Shown: positions 1 to 10,615 of the stretch, piece after piece | How the letters are laid out: every line of letters starts with the position of its first letter | Numbering within the stretch: the first letter of the stretch is position 1 | From: a virus | Lineage: Duplodnaviria > Heunggongvirae > Uroviricota > Caudoviricetes | DNA: 10,615 nt | Reading direction: 5' to 3' (one strand) | Virus record (IMG/VR): IMGVR_UViG_3300028991_000014 | Coordinates: 1 to 10,615 of that record | The notes under the pieces: model-generated | The model's input: the letters and a program-made list of their open reading frames with translations, nothing else | The model's database searches: none | What the model was told of the DNA's origin: nothing | Program-made: the position numbers and the translations under genes

Positions 1-135
1 TTCCTGGAAACGGGCGCGCTAATCGAAAAGGATCGGCATGGATTTGTCAGATGTGCGCTATCCGGTGAAATGCTGGCAGTAAATCCTGAACAGATAGATG
101 CATTGATAGAATTTCTGAAAGGGATCAGGGACTGA
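1..135 (+). CDS. hypothetical protein, C-terminal fragment (gene enters the window from the left)
   Basis: Frame 1 is open from base 1 to TGA at 133-135 (...EFLKGIRD*), followed directly by a hairpin/T-run terminator. The 44 aa give no recognisable family. Confidence 0.4.
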   Translation, partial: FLETGALIEKDRHGFVRCALSGEMLAVNPEQIDALIEFLKGIRD

Positions 136-145
136 GCACCCATAC

Positions 146-179
146 AGCCGGAGCAATCCGGCTTTTTGTAATTTTTTGT
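146..179 (+). terminator. intrinsic terminator downstream of the partial upstream ORF
   Basis: Stem AGCCGGA (146-152) / TCCGGCT (157-163) with GCAA loop, followed by TTTTGTAATTTTTTGT (164-179). Confidence 0.55.
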
Positions 180-291
180 AAATTATTTGTTCGTGGTCGT
201 TCCACGTTGTTCATTGACCGGATCGGCATATTTTACCCGCCCTGAATCATGATTATTCTCGCCAGTGGTGCCAGGACGCTGGGGCCACTTT

Positions 292-333
292 CCCGCCTGT
301 TAATGTGCTCACCAATATTCATTACCAGGCGGG
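292..333. promoter_or_regulatory. 14-bp inverted repeat with 14-bp spacer upstream of the capsid gene (operator or RNA-structure candidate)
   Basis: CCCGCCTGTTAATG (292-305) and CATTACCAGGCGGG (320-333) are reverse complements with one mismatch. No T-run follows on either strand, so it is not a simple terminator. Confidence 0.3.
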
Positions 334-389
334 AAAACGATCGGTGCGATTGCTGATTTCCTTATGAAAAACGGTTGAGTTTTTGCCGC

Positions 390-427
390 GTCCTGGAGTT
401 CCTTACTTAACCCCAGGACTTTTTTTT
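390..427 (+). terminator. terminator-like hairpin plus T8 abutting the capsid start codon (possible regulated terminator or attenuator)
   Basis: Stem GTCCTGG (390-396) / CCAGGAC (413-419) with an inner GTT/AAC extension, followed by TTTTTTTT (420-427) and then ATG at 428. Confidence 0.3.
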
Positions 428-1585
428 ATGCCGAGAATAATCGAATTACGCCAGCAGAAAACCGCCATTAAAAATCAGATGCGCGACATGCTGGAGAACG
501 CGGAAAAAGAAAACCGCAGCCTTAACGATGCAGAGGGCGCAAAATTTGACGAATTACGCGCTAAAGCTGAATCCCTCGATAAAGACATTTCCCGCCTTGA
601 AGCCATTGCAGACGAAGAGCGCAGCAAGCCAGGTAAAAGCAGCCAGACCACTGACCCGGCAGAACTCCGCAACTACATCCTGACAGGTGAAACCCGCGCA
701 TTAAGTACAGGTGTCCCCGCTGATGGTGGTTATACCGTTATCCCTGAACTGAACACCGAAATCATGCGAATGCTGGCGGATGAGTCCACCATGCGCCGCA
801 TCTGTACCGTGAAAAAAATCAGCAGCAACGAGTTTAAGCAGCTTGTTTCCGCTGGCGGTGCGGTCGTTAACCACGGTGAAGAGGGTAAGGCACGCGAACA
901 GACCAGCACCCCGCAGATTAACGAGGTGAGCATTAAGCTGTATCCGGTCTATGCGTACCCGCGCACCACACAGGAAATCGTGGATTTTTCCGATGTGGAC
1001 ATCCTTTCATGGCTGACGGGCGAGATTGGCGACACCTTCACGGAAACCGAAGAAAGTGATCTGGTTGTGGGCGACGGTGACAAAAAAGCAAAAGGTTTTT
1101 TATCCGTACCCCGTGCAGAGAAGAACGACAAAGAACGTGATTTCGGAACGTTGCAGGTTATCAAGCCCGTTGATGATCTTGCCTGGACATCTGCGGACCC
1201 GCTGATCGATCTGAAATTTGCATTACGTAAAAAATACCGCAAGAACGCGGTATGGGTGGTTAACTCCACGACGGCGGCAAAACTCCAGAAGGTGAAGAAT
1301 GCGAACGGGGATTATATATGGCGTGACCGTTTACAGGCGGGTGATCCTGACACATTGCTGGGCCTTCCGGTCGAATATCTGGAGTTTATGCCGGATAACG
1401 TTATTGCCCTGGGCGACTTTAAACGCGGTTACTACATCGTTGATCACGAAACAGGTGTTCGCACCAGACCGGACAACCTGACAGAACCAGGATTCATCAA
1501 AATTTTCACGCAAAAATATTTAGGCGGTGGCGTGGTGGATTCGAACGCGATCAAGATTCTGGAACTGCCACAGGACGACGATTAA
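428..1585 (+). CDS. phage major capsid protein, HK97 family
   Basis: 385-aa product with a charged, coiled-coil-like N-terminal segment (delta-domain-like) followed by a capsid-type body; sits at the head of a protease/portal gene set. The ORF track begins at TTG 383; ATG 428 is chosen as start, but there is no clear SD so the start is uncertain. Confidence 0.8.
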   Translation: MPRIIELRQQKTAIKNQMRDMLENAEKENRSLNDAEGAKFDELRAKAESLDKDISRLEAIADEERSKPGKSSQTTDPAELRNYILTGETRALSTGVPADGGYTVIPELNTEIMRMLADESTMRRICTVKKISSNEFKQLVSAGGAVVNHGEEGKAREQTSTPQINEVSIKLYPVYAYPRTTQEIVDFSDVDILSWLTGEIGDTFTETEESDLVVGDGDKKAKGFLSVPRAEKNDKERDFGTLQVIKPVDDLAWTSADPLIDLKFALRKKYRKNAVWVVNSTTAAKLQKVKNANGDYIWRDRLQAGDPDTLLGLPVEYLEFMPDNVIALGDFKRGYYIVDHETGVRTRPDNLTEPGFIKIFTQKYLGGGVVDSNAIKILELPQDDD

Positions 1586-1595
1586 CAGCATACAG

Positions 1596-1620
1596 AAGGG
1601 GCTAAAAAGCCCCTTTAGTG
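1596..1620 (+). terminator. hairpin between capsid and protease genes (possible partial terminator or attenuator)
   Basis: Stem AAGGGGC (1596-1602) / GCCCCTT (1609-1615) with TAAAAA loop, followed by an interrupted T-run (TAGTGTTTTATG). Confidence 0.3.
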
Positions 1621-1640
1621 TTTTATGGGTGAAAAAAATT

Positions 1641-2198
1641 ATGAAGAGTATGGAAATCCGGTCATCGGAAATCACCACCAGCGCCAGCAACACGCTTACA
1701 GGCTACGTTGTTCGCTGGGATAACCTTTCGGAACTGTTATGGGGGGAGTTTTACGAAAAATTCCAGCGGGGGGCGTTTACTGAGTGGCTTGCGGCGGGTA
1801 ATGACGTTCGCGGCCTGTATGAGCATGACCACAGCATGTTACTGGGGCGCACCCGTTCTGGCACGCTGAAACTGGAAGAGGACGACACAGGGTTACGCTT
1901 TGAACTTACCCCACCGGATACCAGCACAGGGCGTGACGTTATCGAACTGGTTAAACGTGGTGATATATCCGGCATGAGCTTTGGCTTTCGTTCCCGTAAG
2001 GATGTATGGGATACCACAACAGATCCATGCGTGCGCACCGTGCTGGTGGCGGAACTGTACGAAATTACCGTTACATCCGTACCGGCTTACCCCGATTCCG
2101 GCGTGGAGCTGGCCCGCCGTTCCCTGTATGAGCAGCACCCCGAAAAAATGCCGCGTGCGGATAATCGCCGCTGGTGGGCGGATTTAGCGGGGGTGTGA
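1641..2198 (+). CDS. phage prohead (head maturation) protease, HK97 family
   Basis: Translation from ATG 1641 (MKSMEIRSSEITT...) has the HK97 prohead protease layout (LYEHDHS..., KRGDISGMSFGF, VPAYPDS). The 5' part of track ORF 1527 overlaps the capsid gene and is rejected. A GGTGA lies 9 nt upstream. Confidence 0.85.
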   Translation: MKSMEIRSSEITTSASNTLTGYVVRWDNLSELLWGEFYEKFQRGAFTEWLAAGNDVRGLYEHDHSMLLGRTRSGTLKLEEDDTGLRFELTPPDTSTGRDVIELVKRGDISGMSFGFRSRKDVWDTTTDPCVRTVLVAELYEITVTSVPAYPDSGVELARRSLYEQHPEKMPRADNRRWWADLAGV

Positions 2199-2199
2199 T

Positions 2200-3411
2200 A
2201 TGTGGCCTTTCAGAAGAAAAAAAGAGCAGCGCAGCATGACGCTTGATGAATTTATGGCGCTGGCTGGCACATCGAACACGGGGGCGGGTGAGTACGTATC
2301 ATCGGGGACAGCGGAATCACTCCCCGCCGTCATGAACGCCGTCACGGTCATATCTGAGGCGGTGGCTACTATGCCATGCTACCTGTACCTGGTACGCAAT
2401 GAGAAGGGGAAGGAGGCCCGCGAGTGGCTTGATTCTCATCCGGTCGATCATATCCTCAACGAGCGCCCGAACGCATGGCAAACCCCCTACCAGTTTAAGC
2501 GAATGATGATCCGCCACTGCCTGTTAAACGGTAATGCTTACGCGGTGATTCAGTGGGGGCGTGATGGTTTTCCGGCGGCTTTACATCCTTACCCGCCGCA
2601 GTCGGTGAACGTGGAGCAGACAGGAGAACACAACTGGCGCTATTGCATCACTGACGCCTACACCGGAAACACCCGCAACTATTTACCGTGGGAAGTACTT
2701 CACCTTCGTTACTCCACGGATGACGGCTTTATGGGGCGCTCACCTGTAACCATCTGCCGCGAATCGCTGGGGCTTGGGCTGGCCCAACAACGCCACGGCG
2801 CGAGCGTGATGCGTGATGGCATGATGGCAGCAGGGGTTATCACGTCAGGCGAATGGCTGGACGGCGTGAAGGGCAAACAGGCATTAGCCGCACTGGAACG
2901 CTATAAAGGGGCCAAAAACGCCGGAAAAACGCCCATCCTTGAAGGGGGCATGAGTTACCAGCAGCTGGGCATGAGTAACCAGGACGCCGAATGGCTGGCC
3001 TCCCGTCGCTTCACCATTGAAGACATCGCCCGAATGTTCAACGTCTCGCCGATTTTTCTGCAGGAATACAGCAACAGCACCTACAGCAATTTCAGCGAGG
3101 CAAGCCGCGCATTTCTCACCATGACGATGCGCCCGTGGCTGGCGAACTTTGAGCAGCAGATAAAAAACGCCTTGCTGGTGGTCTCGCCTGTACCTGGTAT
3201 CCGGTATCAGGTGGAGTTTGACAGCGCGGACCTGTTACGGGCCACACCTGGCGAACGCTTTGCCACCTATGAGCGAGGCATCAAATCCGGTGTTATGTGC
3301 CCGAACGAAGCCCGCGAACGAGAAGGGTTGTCTCCGCGTGATGGTGGTGATGAGTTCAGCCAGGCATGGAAACAGGAAGTAAAAATCAGCGAGGGAGAAA
3401 AACCGGAATGA
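2200..3411 (+). CDS. phage portal protein, HK97 family
   Basis: 403-aa product with portal hallmarks (ESLPAVMNAVTVISEAVATMP, LLNGNAYAVIQ, GGMSYQQLGMSNQDAEWL, IEDIARMFNVSP). GGGGG SD at 2189-2193; start is 1 nt after the protease stop. Confidence 0.9.
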   Translation: MWPFRRKKEQRSMTLDEFMALAGTSNTGAGEYVSSGTAESLPAVMNAVTVISEAVATMPCYLYLVRNEKGKEAREWLDSHPVDHILNERPNAWQTPYQFKRMMIRHCLLNGNAYAVIQWGRDGFPAALHPYPPQSVNVEQTGEHNWRYCITDAYTGNTRNYLPWEVLHLRYSTDDGFMGRSPVTICRESLGLGLAQQRHGASVMRDGMMAAGVITSGEWLDGVKGKQALAALERYKGAKNAGKTPILEGGMSYQQLGMSNQDAEWLASRRFTIEDIARMFNVSPIFLQEYSNSTYSNFSEASRAFLTMTMRPWLANFEQQIKNALLVVSPVPGIRYQVEFDSADLLRATPGERFATYERGIKSGVMCPNEAREREGLSPRDGGDEFSQAWKQEVKISEGEKPE

Positions 3412-3746
3412 ACATAGGGCGACTGCGTGACAGGGTAACGATTCAGACCCTGAAACAGACCAGAGCCATGACGGGCGAAATACTCGAAACGTGGGAGGAC
3501 GGTCACACACTCTGGGCAAGCGTGAACATGGTCAGCAGCAAGGAGGCCATTTCATCGGGTGCAGAGCTGGCGATTGGTACCGTAAGGATCTGGATACGGT
3601 ACCGGAAGGACATTAACGCCACCAGCCGGATAAAGGTCAATACGGGGCCGCTGGCGGGGCGTGTACTGAATATCATCGGGCAGCCGCTGCCGGATGCCGC
3701 CAGGACACGCCTTGAAATTCTTTGTCGTGAGGGCGCGGAAAAATGA
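3408..3746 (+). CDS. phage head-tail adaptor / head closure protein
   Basis: 112-aa product from ATG 3408 with motifs RVTIQ, TLWASV, RIWIRYRKDI, RLEILCRE typical of this family. Start overlaps the portal stop (ATGA); GAGGGAG SD at 3391-3397. Confidence 0.8.
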   Translation: MNIGRLRDRVTIQTLKQTRAMTGEILETWEDGHTLWASVNMVSSKEAISSGAELAIGTVRIWIRYRKDINATSRIKVNTGPLAGRVLNIIGQPLPDAARTRLEILCREGAEK

Positions 3747-4039
3747 CAGAAGAACTTATCACCCTGGAAGAAGTGAAACTCCATTGCCGCATCGATGGCG
3801 ACGAGGAAGACCAGTTAATCAGCGGATACATTGCCGCATCGCTTGAGGCGTGCCAGATACACATAGGCAGGCGCTTTGATGACGGGCTGGAGTTCACGCC
3901 AGCCATAAAGATTGGCTGCATGATGTTTATCGCTCACCTGTATGAGAATCGCCAGATTGTCGCGGATAACGCAAAAACACACGTACCCATGACGATTGGC
4001 GCACTCTGGACGGCTTACCGTGATGTGGGGGTGTACTGA
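3743..4039 (+). CDS. phage gp6-like head-tail connector protein
   Basis: 98-aa product MTEELITLEEVKLHCRIDGDEEDQLISGYIAAS... matches the gp6-like connector pattern. ATGA overlap with the adaptor stop. Confidence 0.8.
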   Translation: MTEELITLEEVKLHCRIDGDEEDQLISGYIAASLEACQIHIGRRFDDGLEFTPAIKIGCMMFIAHLYENRQIVADNAKTHVPMTIGALWTAYRDVGVY

Positions 4040-4479
4040 TGCCGTGGCAACCATTAAGACGATGTACAGAACCAGGCTGCAACAGGCGCGTGAAGTCCGG
4101 CAAGTGTGAGGAGCACAGACGCAGCGCACGCCAGCAGCAGGACAGCCGGAGAGGCAGCAGCAGGGAGCGAGGGTATACGAGGCAGTGGGAGAAATACCGC
4201 GCCATGTATCTGAGTAAAAACCCGTTATGTGCGCATTGCCTGGAAAAAGGAATATACAAGCCCGCCGTGGTGGTGGATCACATTATCCCAATCGATGGCG
4301 GTAATGATGTTCTCTTCTGGCCTGAGTGGAATCATCAGCCATTGTGCCAGGCGTGTCATAACCAGAAAACGAAATGGCTTGATCCGTCCACAAAAAACAA
4401 GCGTGCTGCGGGTGGATTCCGTGAGGAGGAAGAACGGGCCGCTAACCGCAATAACTGGATGTATGGCGCTGATGAATGA
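4039..4479 (+). CDS. HNH endonuclease (terminase-associated, cos-cleavage accessory type)
   Basis: HNH motif CAHC...VVDHIIPIDGGNDV...NHQPLCQACHNQKT; ATGA overlap with the connector stop; position immediately upstream of terS/terL is typical of HNH-dependent cos packaging. Confidence 0.85.
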   Translation: MPWQPLRRCTEPGCNRRVKSGKCEEHRRSARQQQDSRRGSSRERGYTRQWEKYRAMYLSKNPLCAHCLEKGIYKPAVVVDHIIPIDGGNDVLFWPEWNHQPLCQACHNQKTKWLDPSTKNKRAAGGFREEEERAANRNNWMYGADE

Positions 4480-4645
4480 GCGGGAACAAAACCGCCTTAT
4501 CCGTGGACTTATAAGGCAGCGTGACGCATGGAAGGCACAGGAAACAGGGCATAAAGATAAAGCATCAGGACGCGCAGAACGCATCACAGCGACGCGATTA
4601 AACGACCGTGACCGCGAGGTTATGGAATGTTTCCGCAATCGCTGA
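4472..4645 (+). CDS. hypothetical small basic protein (57 aa)
   Basis: ATG 4472 overlaps the HNH stop by 8 nt; translation MNEREQNRLIRGLIRQRDAWKAQ... is Arg/Lys-rich. It is the non-overlapping distal part of track ORF 4229-4645. No family recognised. Confidence 0.35.
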   Translation: MNEREQNRLIRGLIRQRDAWKAQETGHKDKASGRAERITATRLNDRDREVMECFRNR

Positions 4646-4768
4646 TGAGGCAGCCGGACGGGGTGGGGGGAGTTTTCAGGACGAACCCGACCCCGCCCAG
4701 AACCGACCGCCTCCCCAAATTTTTATGCACGGTAATTTTTTGAAAAATAATCTGGCGAAAAAATAAGC
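4646..4768. other. candidate cos (cohesive-end / terminase recognition) region
   Basis: Non-coding gap between the HNH region and terS with a G-run GGACGGGGTGGGGGGAG (4656-4672) followed by C-runs CCCGACCCCGCCC (4686-4698) and CGCCTCCCC (4708-4716). Position matches where HNH-dependent cos phages carry cos. Confidence 0.4.
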
Positions 4769-5125
4769 ATGGCAAGACCACCGAAAGCCCCCGCCTACCT
4801 GGATGATATCGCCGTGAAGCAGTGGCGGGAAAAATCGCGGCAGCTTGCGGAACGGGGAGACCTGACCCCTGCCGACTGGAGTAATCTGGAACTGTATTGC
4901 GTCAATTACTCGATATACCGGAAAGCCGTCGCAGACCTTGCGGCGCGCGGGTTCAGCATTGTTAACAGTCAGGGCGGAGAGAGCAGAAACCCCGCATTAA
5001 GCGCGAAATCCGACGCGGAAAGAGTGATGATAAAAATGGCCTCTTTGCTCGGTTTTGACCCGATAAGCCGCCGTAAAAATCCACCGGAAACAGAAGAAGA
5101 GGACGAGCTTGACCGCCTGGAATAA
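4769..5125 (+). CDS. phage terminase small subunit, P27 family
   Basis: 118-aa product MARPPKAPAYLDD...LELYCVNYSIYRKAV...GGESRNPAL...LLGFDPISRRK fits the P27-family TerS pattern; immediately upstream of and overlapping the large terminase gene. Confidence 0.85.
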   Translation: MARPPKAPAYLDDIAVKQWREKSRQLAERGDLTPADWSNLELYCVNYSIYRKAVADLAARGFSIVNSQGGESRNPALSAKSDAERVMIKMASLLGFDPISRRKNPPETEEEDELDRLE

Positions 5126-6770
5126 GTACGCAGAAGACGTAAAAACGGGCAAGATTCCGGCCTGTAAACGGCTGAAACAGGCCGTTAAACGATACTTTTC
5201 GGACCTTGAAAACCCCCTTTACATGTTCGATCGTGAGGTTGTTGAGCGGTTTATTGCCTTTTCCAGGGTGTGCCCGCACGTAAAAGGGCCGATGCGTGGA
5301 AGACCCATTGAGCTGGAACCGTGGCAGCAGTTTGCCTTTGCGTGCATCCTCGGCTTTAAGGTTAAGGCCACCGGAAGGCGCAAATACACGAGCGCCTTTA
5401 TCGAAGTGCCGCGCAAAAATGCGAAATCCACGACAGCCGCGATTCTGGCTAACTGGTTTCTGATTATGGAGAACGGGCAGCAGGATATTTACACCGCAGC
5501 GGTGAGCCGCGACCAGGCGCGGATCGTTTTTGATGATGCGCGTCAGATGTGCCTTTTATCCCGACCGTTACGCAAGAGAGTGAATATTCAGGCCCACAAG
5601 GTGATGCACCCGAAAAGCAACAGCCTGTTAAAGCCGCTGGCAGCAAAAGCGGCAACCATCGAGGGCACAAACCCAAGCCTTTCCATCGTGGACGAATACC
5701 ACCTACACCCCGATAACGGCGTTTATTCCGCGCTTGAGCTGGGGATGGGCGCACGTCCCGAAGGGCTGTTATTTGCCATTACCACATCGGGCAGTAACGT
5801 CGTTTCAGCCTGTAAACAGCACTATGATTATTGCTGCCAGATCCTGGACGGCGAAGAGGTCAACGATTCAATTTTTGTGCTGATTTACGAGCTGGACGAC
5901 GAAAACGAGGTTGATGATCCGGCGATGTGGATAAAGGCTAACCCTAACATCGATGTTTCCGTGGATCGTGAAAAACTGGCCTCAACCATCCAGAAAGCGC
6001 GGGGTATTCCGTCGCAATGGGTGGAGATGATGACAAAGCGATTTAATATCTGGTGCCAGGGGGCTACCCCGTGGATGGGTAACGGCGCATGGGCTGAGTG
6101 TGCCGGAACGTTCACGGAGGAAGATTTACACGGGCAGGAGTGTTACGCGGGGCTGGACTTATCATCAACCAGCGATATTTCCAGCGTGTGCTATGCCTTT
6201 CCGGTTGGTAAAACCATTATGCTGATTTCCCGTCATTATCTGCCGGAGTTCCAGCTACAGAACCCCGCCAATAAAAACCGCGCTGTCTATCGCCAGTGGG
6301 CTAAAGCGGGCTGGATACGCACAACGCCAGGTGACTGCATTGATTACGACCGGATCAGAGATGACATCATGCAGGATGCGGAGAAATTTAATATCAGGCT
6401 GGTGGGCTTTGATACGTGGAACGCCACGCACCTGAGAACGCAATTACAGGGGGCTGGTTTTGAGGTGGAGCCGTTCCCGCAAACCTACCTCAGATTCAGT
6501 CCGGCGGCGAAATCGTTCGAAGTTTTTGTTAACCGCAGGGTGATTGTGCATCGTGGCGATCCGGTGTTGTCCTGGTCGATGAGTAACGTCGTGATGCAGA
6601 GTGACGCGAACGCCAATATCAAGCCGAACAAGAAAAAATCACCGAACAAGATAGACCCGAGCGTAGCGGCGCTGATGGCGTTTGGTACATTCCAGGCAGA
6701 GCATGAGGATTTTGCTTTTGATATAAGCGACAGCCACCGCCAGAAACTGGAAGAATTTAGCGGGGTGTAA
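5109..6770 (+). CDS. phage terminase large subunit
   Basis: 553-aa product with an ATPase Walker A-like segment (EVPRKNAKSTTAA), DEYH Walker B-like motif and a C-terminal nuclease-type domain. Apparent TTG start at 5109 with AGAGGA SD 5 nt upstream; overlaps the terS 3' end. The first in-frame ATG would remove the conserved N-terminus. Confidence 0.9.
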   Translation: MTAWNKYAEDVKTGKIPACKRLKQAVKRYFSDLENPLYMFDREVVERFIAFSRVCPHVKGPMRGRPIELEPWQQFAFACILGFKVKATGRRKYTSAFIEVPRKNAKSTTAAILANWFLIMENGQQDIYTAAVSRDQARIVFDDARQMCLLSRPLRKRVNIQAHKVMHPKSNSLLKPLAAKAATIEGTNPSLSIVDEYHLHPDNGVYSALELGMGARPEGLLFAITTSGSNVVSACKQHYDYCCQILDGEEVNDSIFVLIYELDDENEVDDPAMWIKANPNIDVSVDREKLASTIQKARGIPSQWVEMMTKRFNIWCQGATPWMGNGAWAECAGTFTEEDLHGQECYAGLDLSSTSDISSVCYAFPVGKTIMLISRHYLPEFQLQNPANKNRAVYRQWAKAGWIRTTPGDCIDYDRIRDDIMQDAEKFNIRLVGFDTWNATHLRTQLQGAGFEVEPFPQTYLRFSPAAKSFEVFVNRRVIVHRGDPVLSWSMSNVVMQSDANANIKPNKKKSPNKIDPSVAALMAFGTFQAEHEDFAFDISDSHRQKLEEFSGV

Positions 6771-6783
6771 TGAGGTCAGCAGC

Positions 6784-7065
6784 ATGACAGAAGCCGAAAT
6801 ACTGCGATTAATCCGCCGCGTCTCTGGAATCAGCCAGCAGCATGACGAACAGGCCACGCAGCCGGACAGCGTGACCGCCGAAAATTATGCGCGTGTTGTT
6901 GCTGAGGTGATGCGCCGTGATGGTATCCAGCTTAATGATGTGGATATGCGCAACATACGGATCCGCGTTCTTGAAATGCTGGCCTACCGTCGCCGCGTGC
7001 AGACGTACAGGGAAAAAGCAAAAATTACGTACCACTGGAAGAAGCCGGAGCGGTTACGGCGGTAA
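6784..7065 (+). CDS. hypothetical protein (93 aa), last gene of the element
   Basis: ORF with GAGG SD about 8 nt upstream of ATG 6784; basic C-terminus (KKPERLRR); no recognisable family. Its stop abuts the first copy of a 28-bp direct repeat. Confidence 0.45.
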   Translation: MTEAEILRLIRRVSGISQQHDEQATQPDSVTAENYARVVAEVMRRDGIQLNDVDMRNIRIRVLEMLAYRRRVQTYREKAKITYHWKKPERLRR

Positions 7066-7070
7066 CTGGT

Positions 7071-7098
7071 TGAACTTAAAGCAAAGCGCAAAATTGCG
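7071..7098. repeat. 28-bp direct repeat, copy 1 (TGAACTTAAAGCAAAGCGCAAAATTGCG)
   Basis: Identical 28-mer recurs at 7290-7317; flanking bases are also partly similar (CGGTTAC...CTGGTTG). Confidence 0.8.
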
Positions 7099-7111
7099 TT
7101 GGCTGGTGGGT

Positions 7112-7131
7112 GAGTTGCAGATCTGCAACTC
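7112..7131. repeat. perfect 20-bp palindrome GAGTTGCAGATCTGCAACTC
   Basis: Exact self-complementarity read directly from the sequence. It lies between the two direct-repeat copies, together with further hairpins at 7203-7225 (8-bp stem CGATACCC/GGGTATCG) and 7263-7276 (GGCGGAATTCCGCC). Confidence 0.8.
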
Positions 7132-7289
7132 GACCATGAAATTACGGAAAATACCCGTAGTTTGGGTAGTAAGAGTAACACCCAGATTTTGGGGCTTACT
7201 CGCGATACCCAAATAAAGGGTATCGGTGGAAGAAATATCGTTTCTCATATGTGAGTACCGAGGGCGGAATTCCGCCTTCGGTTACTCGC

Positions 7290-7317
7290 TGAACTTAAAG
7301 CAAAGCGCAAAATTGCG
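7290..7317. repeat. 28-bp direct repeat, copy 2
   Basis: Identical to 7071-7098. Confidence 0.8.
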
Positions 7318-7644
7318 CTGATTACTGGTTGGAATTGTTCCAGAGTGCAAATTTACACTATGGCCTAACCCGTTGATATTTCCGGCAACCTCAATTTGAG
7401 GAGGCAGGGAACATCCCCTAAATCCGGTGATGTATTCGGCCCCTTTAACGGGTATTACGATAATCATAACACCTACCGAACAGGTAAAGGCCACCAGCCT
7501 GATTAACGTTTAACCGGAAAAAAAGCCAGGTATCCAATCTCGATATGTGGATCCCCATATCGACAGCAATGCCCCCTTAAAATTATCCGCCTTTATATTT
7601 CTTGTGCCTATTTGTTCCACGTTGTTTCATACAGTGCGCCGAAC

Positions 7645-7668
7645 GGTGTAGTCACTGGTGTAGTCATT
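7645..7668. repeat. tandem 12-bp direct repeats GGTGTAGTCACT / GGTGTAGTCATT near the element end
   Basis: Two adjacent near-identical units about 75 bp from the junction with tqsA. Candidate recombinase arm-type or regulator binding sites (inference). Confidence 0.5.
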
Positions 7669-7712
7669 TTGCGATTTTTGGCACTTTTTGTGGTGCAAAT
7701 TATTTAATTAAA

Positions 7713-7877
7713 TCAATGTGTTAAGTGAAATAAGTTATATATAACAGCAATAAATAATGCGAGAATAAACGGCACGATGATCTCGGCGGCAAAACGGATA
7801 CCGCAGAGAATAATGACCAGCATTCCCAACATAATGACGATTTTTAGGCCATTGAGCGTGATGATCGGCTTTGCCAT
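7713..7877 (-). pseudogene. tqsA: tqsA (ydgG) 5' fragment truncated by the element insertion
   Basis: Minus-strand translation from ATG 7877 gives [46 protein letters not shown], which matches the TqsA N-terminus as recalled. The frame then diverges into AT-rich element DNA (YNLFHLTH, stop at 7713-7715). Divergent from mdtJ as in E. coli. Confidence 0.7.
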
Positions 7878-8288
7878 GCTTGTCCCCGTTTTTTCTTCCT
7901 TTGCTAATAATAATGTCTTTTTCGCTCCGTCATCATAACGAAAATCAAACCGCTCAGGTAAAGAAGTGAAAATATTTTGAGTTAATTCTTAAGCTATGAT
8001 ACAAATCAGGCGTGTTCAACTACCGAGGACAATTATCATCCGCGATGACGAGAAGCAACACTGCGGATAATTGTAATATTATGGACAATTTGTTCAGGAC
8101 GTTATTTTCAACATTTACCCATCTTCGTACCTCATCCACTATCTTGCTCGTAGGTGAGCAGCACTGGCGCAACGCGCTTTAGTCCTTTCTTCTGCCTAAG
8201 CTTGCCCTATGCGCGGGGCTTGACCACTTTACTTTGGTTTCGCTGAATTAAGCGAAAATTAAAATAATTCTCTTGCAGGAGAAGGACA

Positions 8289-8654
8289 ATGTATATTTAT
8301 TGGATTTTATTAGGCCTGGCTATTGCTACAGAAATTACCGGTACGCTGTCAATGAAATGGGCGAGCGTCAGTGAGGGAAATGGCGGCTTTATTTTAATGC
8401 TGGTGATGATTTCTCTGTCGTATATATTTCTCTCTTTCGCCGTTAAAAAGATCGCCTTAGGCGTAGCTTATGCGCTGTGGGAAGGTATCGGTATTTTATT
8501 TATTACCTTGTTTAGCGTTTTGTTATTCGACGAAAGTTTATCGCTGATGAAAATTGCCGGGTTAACCACCCTGGTCGCCGGGATTGTGTTGATCAAATCA
8601 GGTACCCGTAAAGCGCGTAAACCTGAACTGGAGGTGAACCATGGCGCAGTTTGA
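8289..8654 (+). CDS. mdtJ: spermidine export protein MdtJ (SMR family)
   Basis: 121-aa four-TM SMR-type protein matching E. coli MdtJ as recalled; GGAGAAGGA SD upstream; overlaps mdtI start. Confidence 0.95.
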
Positions 8655-8970
8655 ATGGGTTCACGCCGCCTGGCTGGCATTGGCAATCGTGCTGGAAATC
8701 GTTGCTAACGTCTTTTTGAAATTTTCTGACGGCTTTCGTCGCAAAATATTTGGCTTGCTCTCCCTGGCGGCGGTGCTGGCTGCCTTTAGTGCGCTTTCTC
8801 AGGCCGTAAAAGGGATCGACTTGTCTGTCGCTTATGCATTGTGGGGCGGGTTTGGTATTGCCGCCACGTTAGCCGCAGGTTGGATCTTGTTTGGTCAACG
8901 GTTAAATCGTAAAGGCTGGATTGGCCTGGTCTTGCTGTTGGCTGGAATGATCATGGTGAAACTTGCCTGA
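8641..8970 (+). CDS. mdtI: spermidine export protein MdtI (SMR family)
   Basis: 109-aa SMR-type protein ([32 protein letters not shown]...); GGAGGTG SD; 14-nt overlap with mdtJ, consistent with the mdtJI operon. Confidence 0.95.
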
Positions 8971-8976
8971 TGAAGA

Positions 8977-9017
8977 CGCTGCCCGCGCTGTCGGGCAGCG
9001 TTTGAACATTATTTTTG
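8977..9017 (+). terminator. hairpin terminator between convergent mdtI and ydgD
   Basis: Stem CGCTGCCCG (8977-8985) / CGGGCAGCG (8992-9000) with CGCTGT loop, followed by TTTGAACATTATTTTTG. Confidence 0.5.
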
Positions 9018-9830
9018 CGACAGTTGATCCAGCTTGTCGCGAAAACCGGTAACAGAAATGGCCCGGTTATCGGCGCGCCAGCGATCTTTCGCGGCAGGAG
9101 CCGAACTTTGCACCCCAATTAATTGCCAGCCGTCATCGGTATGCAACATCAGAGGCGAACCGCTGTCACCCGGCAAGGTATCGCACTGATGTGACATCAC
9201 CGACGTTTGCGCCCAGCCAGTCACTTCACAGTTTTGATGACTGTATAACGTATCGAGATGATCTTCAGGATATCCCGCCTGAGTCACTTTACGACCAGCC
9301 GATTTTAATGCGGCAGTAAGCGCGGCTTTATCTCCCTCAAATAACGGCAACGGTGTAATGCCAGAAGGGGGATTACGCAGCACAATCAAGCCGAAGTCCC
9401 ATGGTGCAGCTGCGGGAGGAACAATCCAACCATCCCCATCTGCTTTTAACCGCTTTCCCAGTGTCGGATCAACGCGGCCTTCTATGTCGTGGATCTCATA
9501 GCGCCAAAGACCTTTATTTGACACAAAACGCAGCGCCACTGCTTTATCGGCTTTACCCTTTGGAGGTGTCAATAAACAGTGTCCTGCCGTTAATGCCAGA
9601 TTGGGTGCAATCAGCGTCGCCGTACATAAATTGCCGCTGGCCGTTTCCAGTTGCCCAACCGCATCCCACGGTGATTGGGTCGTGTCATTCACTGGCACAC
9701 GATCATCATGACCAAAAAACAGGGTGCTGACCTCATCGTTTGCCGATTTGGCAACGTCTGGTTTATCTGCAAACACAAAAGCAGACGTCAAACTAATTGC
9801 ACCCAACACTACAGCAATGGTTGTACGCAT
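9009..9830 (-). CDS. ydgD: secreted trypsin-like serine protease YdgD (peptidase S1 family)
   Basis: 273-aa product with signal-peptide-like N-terminus and catalytic motifs TAGHCLL (His) and GDSGSPL (Ser); position between mdtI and asr as in E. coli. Confidence 0.9.
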
Positions 9831-9929
9831 ATCACACTCTGGTGGGTAATTATGATTATTAAAAGCAAACCCTCATAAATACTATAGACGGGACGGGATG
9901 AAAGTGGGAGTAAAATCAGATAACTACAG

Positions 9930-10013
9930 TCAGGAAAGATAAAAACGGGCGGCAATCAGTGCGCATAAAATAAGGATGATAAGAATGAACTCAAAGCGAT
10001 AACGGCCCACCAT
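9930..10013 (-). CDS. ydgU: small membrane protein YdgU (27 aa)
   Basis: Minus-strand ATG at 10013 preceded by GGAGGG SD; translation MVGRYRFEFILIILILCALIAARFYLS is hydrophobic and matches the short ydgU ORF known between asr and ydgD. Not in the supplied ORF track (too short). Confidence 0.65.
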   Translation of the reverse strand: MVGRYRFEFILIILILCALIAARFYLS

Positions 10014-10030
10014 ACTACCCTCCGCTAAAG

Positions 10031-10087
10031 GCGGTGCTAAACGTTACCCGCTTAGCACCGTAATTTTCAGGCGCGAGGGGGCGCGCC
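10031..10087 (-). terminator. hairpins in the asr 3' region (candidate asr terminator)
   Basis: Two GC-rich stems: GGTGCTAA (10033-10040) / TTAGCACC (10052-10059), and GGCGCG (10070-10075) / CGCGCC (10082-10087). The U-tract on the minus-strand transcript is weak, so the call is tentative. Confidence 0.3.
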
Positions 10088-10105
10088 AGCATTACTGTTG
10101 AAAAC

Positions 10106-10414
10106 TTACGCTGCGGGTTGTGCAGCAGGTTTTGCCGGTTGCTGATGGCTGTGTTTCCCGGCGTGTTTCTTCGCTGCCTGCGCTTTTTGTTCAGGGGCTT
10201 TCTGTTCAGCTTTCGTATTTTTATGATGCTTTTTAGCCGCCTGCGCTTTCTGGGCAGGTGCTGCTTTATGCTGTTTTTTATGATGTGTCGTTTTCGCCGG
10301 CGCTGCTTTGGTGGTCGTCGCAGTCGGAGCAGGTGTGGTCGCAGTCTCTGCAGCAAAGGCGGCAGAAGACAGACCCATAGCAGCGGCAACAACCAGAGCT
10401 AATACTTTTTTCAT
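10106..10414 (-). CDS. asr: acid shock protein Asr
   Basis: 102-aa product [23 protein letters not shown]... with signal peptide and Lys/Ala/His-rich repeats, matching E. coli Asr as recalled. Start chosen at ATG 10414 (GAGGG SD 7 nt upstream) rather than the track's 10441. Confidence 0.9.
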
Positions 10415-10615
10415 TGTCATACCCTCAATTTGTTTTTTCATTTAACCCCACTGCGGGGCCGTTGAAATAACTATATCCCTGGGAATGGCAGACTTCCGTG
10501 AGTGGTTGGTTTCAGCGTGTAACGATATGTACAAACGCTGGGTAATGACTCCAACTTATTGATAGTGTTTTATGTTCAGATAATGCCCGATGACTTTGTC
10601 ATGCAGCTCCACCGA
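10415..10615 (-). promoter_or_regulatory. asr upstream regulatory region
   Basis: Non-coding DNA 5' of asr on the minus strand. asr is known to be acid-induced via two-component regulators, but no specific binding sites were mapped here. Confidence 0.35.

What the first reader, a model, noticed from the sequence alone, without database searches (positions are those of the whole stretch)
7645..7668. Tandem 12-bp direct repeats adjacent to the integration junction
GGTGTAGTCACT is immediately followed by GGTGTAGTCATT about 75-95 bp inside the element from the tqsA junction, in AT-rich DNA. Position and form resemble arm-type integrase sites or iterons.
Basis: partly seen in the sequence, partly recalled or inferred. 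Interest (0 to 1): 0.35.

Follow-up and report, generated by a model that had tools for sequence, protein, structure and literature searches.

The report
Integrase arm sites of a phage satellite
The two adjacent 12-base repeats are almost certainly the docking sites where a mobile island's integrase grips one arm of its attachment site, a layout known from phage P4, so the feature is real but ordinary.

Summary
GGTGTAGTCACT (7645-7656) is followed directly by GGTGTAGTCATT (7657-7668), 72-96 bp inside a capsid-forming phage-inducible chromosomal island (cf-PICI) inserted in tqsA. The crossover core is ATAACAGCA at 7741-7749.

Within the window alone the repeat is only marginally significant: 17 of 1000 shuffles give such a tandem. 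Comparison with relatives is what decides it.
- All 16 related E. coli islands, at four integration sites, carry one co-oriented 12-bp pair in each arm.
- The second pair ends 22-36 bp before the integrase start codon.
- The reconstructed attP spacing between the pairs is 231-233 bp. An excised circular island in a metagenome shows this directly.
- The motif changes in concert in all half-sites when the integrase type changes (for example TGTGTGGTCAGT). It follows the integrase's N-terminal arm-binding domain (Pfam PF13356), not AlpA, the replicase or the terminase.
- The island's true origin iterons lie next to the primase gene.
- The phage P4 reference record annotates tandem 12-bp "attP arm sequence repeats" in the same layout.

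Verdict: these are arm-type integrase sites of a P4-type attP. This is a new member of a known kind. Binding has not been shown experimentally. Interest is low to moderate.

The parts
7645..7656 (+). Arm-type half-site 1, GGTGTAGTCACT (integrase-distal arm, prophage attR)
   Evidence: Read directly. Exact GGTGTAGTYA occurs only at the four half-sites in the whole 21-kb relative locus L021. Conserved in 16/16 related islands.
7657..7668 (+). Arm-type half-site 2, GGTGTAGTCATT
   Evidence: Same as half-site 1. The pair ends 72 bp before the core.
7602..7629 (+). Three TTGTnnCn units at 10-bp period (TTGTGCCT, TTGTTCCA, TTGTTTCA), 15 bp upstream of the pair. Candidate binding sites for AlpA (a recombination directionality factor, RDF) (inferred)
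   Evidence: The same module (3 units at 10 bp, a 15-bp spacer, then 2 units at 12 bp) occurs in the integrase-proximal arm of relatives. (T)GTTC-type repeats persist even in fis-site islands of other genera whose flanks are otherwise unrelated.
7711..7723 (+). Exact match to the IHF consensus, AATCAATGTGTTA, between the pair and the core (inferred bending site)
   Evidence: One of 3 exact WATCAANNNNTTR matches in the window, against 0.42 expected. The same position is kept in tqsA- and phoQ-type arms.
7741..7749 (.). Core identity block ATAACAGCA shared by attR, attL, attB and attP. It contains the strand-exchange region
   Evidence: Alignment with K-12 tqsA and both junctions of the CFSAN027343 island. 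Longest block shared by attL and attR in 10 tqsA islands. Present in the excised circular attP of L064.
7713..7877 (-). 5' remnant of host tqsA (host DNA from the core rightwards). The reading frame runs into the island and stops
   Evidence: ORF list. RefSeq annotates the pieces as partial 'pheromone autoinducer 2 transporter' / tqsA pseudogenes. K-12 homology begins at 7741.
428..7065 (+). Packaging half of the cf-PICI that owns the arm: capsid, protease, portal, head closure, connector, HNH, TerS, TerL and a 93-aa ORF
   Evidence: Pfam families of the called genes in collinear loci. RefSeq annotation of the relative. Element family described in bioRxiv 10.1101/2022.09.08.507074.

Best explanation
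The pair forms the two arm-type binding sites of the integrase-distal arm of the attachment site of a capsid-forming PICI inserted in tqsA. In the prophage this arm is attR.

The island's integrase has two DNA-binding parts. It lies outside the window; in relatives it is 409 aa, a P4-family tyrosine recombinase. Its N-terminal arm-binding domain (residues 8-95, PF13356) recognises GGTGTAGTYAnT. Its C-terminal part recognises and cuts the core at ATAACAGCA. A second co-oriented pair lies in the other arm, just upstream of the int gene.

In the excised circle the two pairs flank the core, 233 bp apart start to start. This gives four half-sites for the four subunits of an integrase tetramer. DNA bending would bring the arms to the core. 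The likely bending agents are IHF at 7711-7723 and AlpA on the TTGT repeats at 7602-7629. During excision the attR pair would hold integrase subunits that act on the attR and attL cores.

Shown: the sites, their duplication in both arms, the fixed geometry, and the concerted variation with integrase type. Inferred: that Int binds them, that IHF and AlpA bend the DNA, and that the proximal pair also represses int.
For: (1) A pair occurs in both arms, co-oriented with int, in 16/16 related E. coli islands found through identical capsid or portal proteins, that is, without using the motif. No other period-12 tandem occurs in either arm.

(2) Geometry is fixed across four different cores. The distal pair ends 65-74 bp before the core. 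The proximal pair starts 125-128 bp after it. Start-to-start distance in attP is 231-233 bp.

(3) attP is observed directly. The circular metagenome contig L064 has pairs at 16 and 249 flanking ATAACAGCA, with the int start 23 bp after the second pair. L056 shows the same for the cspD/clpS type.

(4) The half-sites change together. TGTGTGGTCAGT occurs four times in the rcnR/thiM type. In the integrase-proximal arm of fis-site islands of other genera (Int 50-54% identical), both halves carry GTGCAGTCAGT (Buttiauxella), GTGTATCACAA (Phytobacter) or GTGTAGTCAGT (Raoultella).

(5) The motif follows Int, not AlpA. L011 and L017 have 100% identical Int N-domains and the same motif, but AlpA proteins only 62% identical. 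L011 and L014/L016 share AlpA (98%) but have different motifs.

(6) All these integrases have PF13356 Arm-DNA-bind_3 plus PF00589. The most divergent motif goes with the most divergent N-domain.

(7) In IMG/VR, of 51 motif hits with an int in the same locus, 25 are proximal, 26 distal and 0 in opposite orientation. About 88 of 93 distinct contexts are PICI att arms.

(8) Precedent exists. The P4 RefSeq record annotates tandem 12-bp 'attP arm sequence repeats' in both arms, with the proximal pair 16 bp upstream of int. HE-PICIs have a doubled motif at -81/+132. The P4-family integrase IntS of the integrative conjugative element ICEMlSymR7A needs its five arm-type sites for efficient integration.
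Against: No binding or mutational data exist for these sites.

The covariation is weakened by linkage. In the circular form both arms, the core and the 5' end of int lie within about 400 bp and can move together as one block.

In the window's own lineage (L004, L009, L019, L021) the Int N-domain and the proximal pair (GGTGTAGTTAAT twice) look like an import from a phoQ-type island, while the distal pair stays GGTGTAGTCACT/CATT. The four half-sites therefore agree only in GGTGTAGTYAnT. This requires tolerance at positions 9 and 11, which mixed pairs in other islands suggest but do not prove.

The window's own integrase end was not seen. It is inferred from a 99.57% identical relative.
Confidence: 0.82

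Rival explanations
1. The 12-mers are binding sites of the island's AlpA protein (a winged-helix recombination directionality factor and transcription activator), not of the integrase. AlpA would bend both arms and regulate int.
For: The HE-PICI paper leaves this open for its doubled motif. RDFs typically bind direct repeats (PMC7498355 abstract; five TorI sites in KplE1 attL). The proximal pair lies just upstream of int, which AlpA-like proteins are reported to control.
Against: The motif does not follow AlpA. Nearly identical AlpA (98%) goes with different motifs, and different AlpA (62%) goes with the same motif and identical Int N-domains. The 12-bp period is longer than the one-helical-turn spacing usual for RDF arrays. 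A separate 10-bp-period TTGT/GTTC array next to the pair is a better RDF candidate.
Confidence: 0.08
2. The repeats are iterons of a replication origin bound by the island's replicase.
For: Direct repeats in AT-rich DNA.
Against: There are only two 12-bp copies per arm. Islands with three unrelated replicase types (D5_N primase, DUF927, AAA_25) carry the same motif, and islands with the same primase type carry different motifs. PICI origins lie immediately 3' of the replication gene, with two iteron sets (PMC6092414). The relative L021 has exactly that: at least 11 copies of GGTGAACAGT in the 288-bp gap after the primase gene.
Confidence: 0.01
3. The repeats are a packaging signal (a terminase or HNH recognition site, part of cos).
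For: They lie about 900 bp downstream of terL, in a non-coding stretch rich in palindromes.
Against: Islands whose terS-terL region is 97-99% identical to the window's carry different 12-mers according to their integrase. A second pair lies upstream of int at the far end of the integrated element. In HNH-dependent cos systems the site is expected next to terS (general knowledge, not tested here).
Confidence: 0.01
4. The tandem is a chance or neutral duplication without function.
For: Within the window alone such a tandem appears in 1.7% of shuffles, and more often if all periods are allowed. Flanking arm DNA is also well conserved among close relatives, so conservation among them proves little.
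Against: The pair persists, with both halves kept alike, in arms whose flanks have diverged beyond recognition and in integrases only 50% identical. Its distance to the core is fixed within a few bp across four cores.
Confidence: 0.03

Closest known systems
Phage P4 attP arm repeats (Pierson & Kahn 1987, as annotated in RefSeq NC_001609)
   Same: Tandem pairs of 12-bp repeats lie in both arms, all co-oriented with int. The proximal pair sits a few bp upstream of the int start codon (16 bp in P4, 22-36 bp here). The integrase has the same domain layout, an arm-binding N-domain plus a tyrosine recombinase. An AlpA/Vis-type RDF is encoded nearby. P4 int is reported to be repressed by Int and Vis (Piazzolla 2006, cited).
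   Different: The repeat sequence is unrelated (TTGGGGGCATnn against GGTGTAGTYAnT). P4 is more compact (209 against 233 bp start to start; gaps of 53 and 112 bp against 72 and 128 bp). P4 has extra single or inverted copies, while here there are exactly four half-sites. Int is only 24% identical. P4 integrates in a tRNA-Leu gene, whereas this island integrates inside tqsA and disrupts it.
HE-PICI 'doubled motif' tgTGTATTGCantgTGTATTGCa (PMC10111431, 2023)
   Same: A 12-nt unit is doubled. Two co-oriented copies lie about 81 bp upstream and 132 bp downstream of the attP centre. Here the distances are about 77 and 132.5 bp. The elements are PICIs with AlpA and a related integrase clade. That paper gave the same functional hypothesis (Int arm domains or AlpA).
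   Different: The motif sequence differs. That paper states its motif was not found in other PICIs, including fis PICIs. Here analogous doubled motifs with other sequences are found in cf-PICIs, classical PICI-sized elements and fis-site islands, and AlpA is disfavoured as the binder.
Lambda Int arm-type sites P'1-P'2-P'3 and P1, P2
   Same: Arm sites are distinct from core sites and are bound by a separate N-terminal domain. Adjacent direct copies lie in one arm. IHF sites lie between arm and core. The heptamer AGTCACT of the first half-site also occurs in lambda P2 and nearly in P'1; this may be coincidence.
   Different: Lambda has five sites, with a 10-11 bp period in P', mixed orientation and unequal arms. 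Its int gene points towards attP, so there is no promoter overlap. Its arm domain belongs to a different Pfam family.
KplE1 IntS/TorI attL (PMC2951348) and ICEMlSymR7A IntS/RdfS (PMC11963761)
   Same: The integrase promoter overlaps the arm that carries the arm-type sites and RDF sites, giving negative autoregulation. The proximal pair of this island family sits in the same place.
   Different: Those systems have been tested experimentally. The copy in the window is the distal one and is not next to any gene start. No promoter was detected by the simple scan of the proximal arm.

Membership tests
Arm-type sites of a heterobivalent tyrosine integrase attP | The element encodes a tyrosine recombinase with a separate N-terminal arm-binding domain | tested here: met
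   PF13356 Arm-DNA-bind_3 (residues 8-95, E 8e-19) plus PF00589 in the integrase of L021 (99.57% relative) and of all related islands. The int gene itself lies outside the window.
Arm-type sites of a heterobivalent tyrosine integrase attP | The repeated motif lies outside the crossover core and differs from it | tested here: met
   The pair is 72-96 bp from the core ATAACAGCA. The motif is absent from the core region.
Arm-type sites of a heterobivalent tyrosine integrase attP | Copies lie on both sides of the core in attP, with fixed orientation and distance | tested here: met
   16/16 islands; 231-233 bp start to start; 0 of 51 hits in opposite orientation; excised attP seen in L064.
Arm-type sites of a heterobivalent tyrosine integrase attP | The motif co-varies with the integrase arm domain rather than with other DNA-binding proteins | tested here: met
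   It follows the Int N-domain and not AlpA, the replicase or the terminase. Caveat: arms and int are physically linked in the circular form.
Arm-type sites of a heterobivalent tyrosine integrase attP | The integrase N-domain physically binds the sites, and the sites are required for recombination | not testable with these tools
   Needs EMSA or footprinting and att-site mutagenesis.
P4-type attP | Tandem 12-bp arm repeats in both arms, co-oriented with int, proximal pair just upstream of int | tested here: met
   P4 record: pairs at 4174-4151 and 3965-3942, core 4097-4078, int start 3926. The layout here is the same.
P4-type attP | P4 arm-repeat sequence (TTGGGGGCAT) and close Int homology | tested here: not met
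   The repeat sequence is unrelated. Int is 24% identical, E 2e-14. It works like P4 but is not P4.
HE-PICI doubled motif | Doubled 12-nt unit at about -81 and +132 from the attP centre, co-oriented | tested here: met
   About -77 and +132.5 here.
HE-PICI doubled motif | Motif core TGTATTGC | tested here: not met
   The core here is GTGTAGTYA.
PICI replication-origin iterons | Two iteron sets flanking AT-rich DNA immediately 3' of the replication gene, specific to the replicase | tested here: not met
   The pair lies about 9 kb from the primase at the element's end. The motif is independent of replicase type. True iterons are at L021 6048-6336.
RDF (AlpA/Xis/TorI) binding array | Direct repeats about one helical turn apart that follow the RDF | tested here: not met
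   The period is 12 bp and the motif does not follow AlpA. The adjacent 10-bp-period TTGT array fits better.

The most novel reading that the evidence does not exclude
The whole PICI/P4-like integrase clade of enterobacteria would use one minimal, symmetric attP plan. The same module sits in both arms: three 10-bp RDF-type repeats, a 15-bp spacer, and two 12-bp arm sites. That gives exactly four arm half-sites for one integrase tetramer, at a spacing fixed within 2 bp whatever the core. The N-domain plus proximal arm could then be swapped as a cassette between islands, as in the window's lineage, without loss of function. Direction would be set only by AlpA, and the proximal pair would also act as the int operator. 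If so, this would be a simpler and more modular intasome than lambda's, and arm specificity could be read from sequence alone.
Probability: 0.3. Interest if true: 0.45.

Novelty: new member of a known kind. Interest (0 to 1): 0.3.

Why it matters
It pins down the functional attachment site of a cf-PICI, a recently described and widespread family of phage satellites. The site comprises the core, two arm-site pairs, a probable IHF site and probable AlpA sites within about 330 bp. That is useful for engineering int-attP vectors and for calling island boundaries.

It also shows that the 'doubled motif' reported as peculiar to helper-embedded PICIs is a general feature of this integrase clade. The feature is inherited from, or shared with, phage P4, and its sequence varies with the integrase arm domain.

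It does not change how site-specific recombination is understood.

Tried and rejected
- Iterons: rejected. The motif is independent of replicase type, and the real iterons lie next to the primase.
- AlpA as the binder: disfavoured by mismatched AlpA/motif combinations.
- Packaging signal: rejected. Near-identical terS-terL goes with different motifs.
- A 'third copy' at 10544-10555: it lies in an IS1 end.
- Known RNA families: none in the window.
- Sigma-70 promoter scan: nothing at the pair in the window and nothing in the proximal arm of L021, so the autoregulation idea rests on analogy only.
- Search for the window's own source: no identical contig was found. The best is L021 at 99.57%.
- Scan of species genomes with the Int alignment: only 8 loci, and none reached the distal arm, so both-arm evidence outside E. 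coli comes from IMG/VR contexts only.
- Literature search for the exact doubled sequences: no paper.
- PDB: only a DNA-free CP4-like integrase N-domain structure, E 7e-4.
- The shared AGTCACT with lambda arm sites is noted but not treated as evidence.

Full report
**1. The observation**

The window reads GGTGTAGTCACT at 7645-7656 and GGTGTAGTCATT at 7657-7668, head to tail. The DNA around it is AT-rich, GC 0.38. It is the only period-12 tandem with at least 11/12 identity in the window. A tandem of that quality turns up in 17 of 1000 dinucleotide-preserving shuffles. On its own the repeat is therefore suggestive, not compelling. TRF does not report it. A 2-mismatch match at 10544-10555 lies inside the end of an IS1 element and is irrelevant.

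**2. Context**

The window holds the right half of a roughly 15-kb capsid-forming phage-inducible chromosomal island (cf-PICI).
- Its genes are capsid (428-1585), protease, portal (2200-3411), head closure, connector, HNH, TerS, TerL (5109-6770) and a 93-aa ORF.
- This is the EcCIEDL933 family described in bioRxiv 10.1101/2022.09.08.507074.
- The island is inserted in tqsA. The 5' end of tqsA runs leftwards from 7877 and is followed by ydgV, mdtJ, mdtI, ydgD and asr.
- Alignment with intact K-12 tqsA and with both junctions of a related island in E. coli CFSAN027343 shows one block common to attB, attL and attR: ATAACAGCA at 7741-7749.
- The integrase end of the island is outside the window.

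**3. The other arm**

I looked up the window's capsid and portal proteins by exact sequence. This returned 16 distinct full islands (L004-L011, L013-L017, L019-L021), found without any reference to the repeat.
- They have near-identical packaging genes but sit at four chromosomal sites: tqsA, cspD/clpS, roxA/phoQ and rcnR/thiM.
- They carry three unrelated replicase types.
- L021 is 99.57% identical to the window over 1-10540, and identical across 7400-7760.
- In all 16, the only period-12 tandems in either arm are one pair in the distal arm and one co-oriented pair ending 22-36 bp before the int start codon.
- In the whole 21-kb L021 locus, exact GGTGTAGTYA occurs at those four half-sites and nowhere else.

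**4. Geometry**

| Measure | Value across the four cores |
|---|---|
| Distal pair end to core start | 65-74 bp |
| Core end to proximal pair start | 125-128 bp |
| Start-to-start distance in the reconstructed attP | 231-233 bp |

The four cores are ATAACAGCA, ATGATAGTTAT, GGACATATTT and AGAAATACCCGTAT.

An IMG/VR scan for the doubled motif found L064, an 11,098-bp circular metagenome contig with a 119-bp terminal overlap. It is an excised tqsA-type island. Its pairs lie at 16 and 249, flanking ATAACAGCA, and the int start codon comes 23 bp after the second pair. This is direct sight of the predicted attP. L056 shows the same for the cspD/clpS type.

Of the 51 IMG/VR motif hits with an integrase in the same locus, 25 are proximal, 26 are distal and none is in the opposite orientation. 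About 88 of 93 distinct contexts are PICI att arms, covering at least seven different cores including the 3' end of fis. The remaining five contexts are unrelated coding repeats.

**5. Who binds the pair**

All the integrases carry PF13356 (arm DNA-binding domain, residues 8-95) plus PF00589. The motif changes in concert in every half-site when the integrase changes.

| Island type | 12-mer | Where seen |
|---|---|---|
| rcnR/thiM | TGTGTGGTCAGT | four half-sites, both arms |
| fis site, Buttiauxella | GTGCAGTCAGT | both halves of the proximal pair |
| fis site, Phytobacter | GTGTATCACAA | both halves of the proximal pair |
| fis site, Raoultella | GTGTAGTCAGT | both halves of the proximal pair |

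The fis-site integrases are 50-54% identical to those of the E. coli islands. The most deviant motif (Phytobacter) goes with the most deviant N-domain.

AlpA does not fit as the binder.
- L011 and L017 have 100% identical Int N-domains and the same motif, but their AlpA proteins are 62% identical.
- L011 and L014/L016 share AlpA (98%) but have different motifs.

Neither the replicase type nor the terminase sequence tracks the motif.

There is a caveat. In the circular form both arms and the 5' end of int are contiguous, so part of the covariation may reflect linkage.

**6. A wrinkle in the window's own lineage**

Among tqsA islands the integrases differ almost only in residues 1-66. One set has a proximal GGTGTAGTCACT pair. 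The other set (L004, L009, L019 and L021, the window's nearest relatives) has the N-domain and the proximal pair (GGTGTAGTTAAT twice) of phoQ-type islands. Yet this second set keeps the GTCACT/GTCATT distal pair.

The four half-sites there agree only in GGTGTAGTYAnT. Mixed pairs such as GTTAAT+GTCAAT are common in other islands. Positions 9 and 11 of the 12-mer are therefore probably not read by the protein.

**7. Other parts of the arm**

- Fifteen bp upstream of the pair lie three TTGTnnCn units at a 10-bp period (7602-7629).
- The same module of three 10-bp units, a 15-bp spacer and two 12-bp units occurs in the proximal arm.
- (T)GTTC-type repeats persist in fis islands whose flanks are otherwise unrelated.
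- I take these as candidate AlpA (RDF) sites. This is an inference.
- An exact IHF consensus, AATCAATGTGTTA, lies at 7711-7723 between the pair and the core.

**8. Rivals**

- *Iterons.* PICI origins lie immediately 3' of the replication gene (PMC6092414). L021 has at least 11 copies of GGTGAACAGT in the 288-bp gap after its primase.
- *Packaging signal.* Rejected, because islands with near-identical terS-terL have different motifs.
- *Chance.* Rejected, because the pair persists in arms that have otherwise diverged.
- *Known RNAs.* No Rfam family matches the window.

**9. Comparison with what is known**

- **Phage P4.** The RefSeq record of P4 annotates 12-bp 'attP arm sequence repeats' as tandem pairs in both arms. 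These are 4174-4151 (GTGGGGGCACAA AAGGGGGCATAT) and 3965-3942 (TTGGGGGCATAA TTGGGGGCATCT). The core is at 4097-4078 and int starts at 3926. This is the same plan with a different sequence and tighter spacing. P4 Int is 24% identical to the island's integrase.
- **HE-PICIs.** PMC10111431 reported a doubled motif, tgTGTATTGCantgTGTATTGCa, at -81 and +132 in helper-embedded PICIs. It proposed Int arm domains or AlpA as binders and stated that the motif was absent from other PICIs, including fis PICIs. The present data show that analogous doubled motifs are general in this clade, and they favour Int.
- **Promoter overlap.** KplE1 IntS and ICEMlSymR7A IntS show experimentally that arm sites overlapping the int promoter give autoregulation, and that arm sites are needed for integration. 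P4 int is reported to be repressed by Int and Vis (reference list).
- **Exact sequence in the literature.** No paper in the library contains the exact doubled sequences found here.

**10. Verdict**

The iteron reading is rejected. The feature is a new member of a known kind, a P4-type attP arm in a cf-PICI. It is useful for defining the island's attachment site, and it corrects a published statement about the motif's distribution. It is not surprising. Binding and functional requirement remain to be shown.

Noticed in passing
window 10541-10615: The last 75 bases are the end of an IS1 element (GGTAATGACTCCAACTTATTGAT...), 100% identical to IS1 copies in thousands of plasmids. It is inserted upstream of asr, at the point where relatives and K-12 continue with other sequence. 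The weak third match to the 12-mer and one IHF-consensus hit both fall inside it.
   Followed up: yes
window 7602-7629, and the integrase-proximal arms of L006, L021, L005, L011, L022-L027: A second repeat family lies 15 bp upstream of the 12-mer pair: three TTGTnnCn / (T)GTTC(G/A) units at a 10-bp period. It is present in both arms and in distant fis-site islands. TTGTTYCA goes with the 62-aa AlpA type and TTGTTCG with the other AlpA types. These are candidate AlpA (RDF) sites.
   Followed up: partly
window 7713-7877 (minus strand) and 7741-7749: The island splits tqsA (AI-2 exporter) after about codon 43 and does not supply a replacement end. RefSeq calls both pieces pseudogenes in relatives, so carriers of this island should lack TqsA.
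   Followed up: partly
window 7066-7600: A gene-poor stretch between the last island gene and the att arm is full of perfect palindromes (7107-7136, 7257-7282, 7540-7563). It also holds a 53-nt direct repeat (7060-7112 and 7279-7331). It differs between otherwise near-identical islands by whole-module insertions and deletions. Its function is unknown, and no Rfam family matches it.
   Followed up: no
L004, L009, L019, L021 compared with L006, L008, L015 (int residues 1-66 and the proximal arm): tqsA-specific integrases come in two forms that differ almost only in the arm-binding N-domain. One form carries the N-domain and proximal 12-mers of phoQ-site islands. This looks like a cassette exchange of 'proximal arm plus N-domain' between islands with different core specificity.
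   Followed up: partly
L021 6048-6336 (outside the window): The 288-bp gap 3' of the primase gene holds at least 11 copies of GGTGAACAGT(T) in both orientations around AT-rich DNA. This is the typical PICI origin.
   Followed up: yes
L056 (IMGVR_UViG_3300019373_000108) and L064 (IMGVR_UViG_3300045988_152974): Metagenome contigs capture these islands in excised form. L064 is circular with an intact attP. L056 carries an attP junction at one end and an attR junction at the other, which suggests both excised and integrated copies in the sample.
   Followed up: partly
window 7681-7696: A short hairpin followed by a T-rich run, GCACTTTTTGTGGTGC AAATTATTTA, lies between the 12-mer pair and the IHF-like site. 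It is terminator-like by the simple scan, and its stem is partly kept in other arm types.
   Followed up: no
window 163-190: TTTTTGTAAAT is repeated 2.6 times about 240 bp upstream of the capsid gene start. It may be part of the control region of the packaging operon.
   Followed up: no
window 7650-7656 compared with lambda attP (L139 66-85 and 235-245): The first half-site contains AGTCACT, the same heptamer as in lambda's arm-type sites P2 and (nearly) P'1, although the two arm-binding domains belong to different Pfam families. This is probably coincidence.
   Followed up: partly
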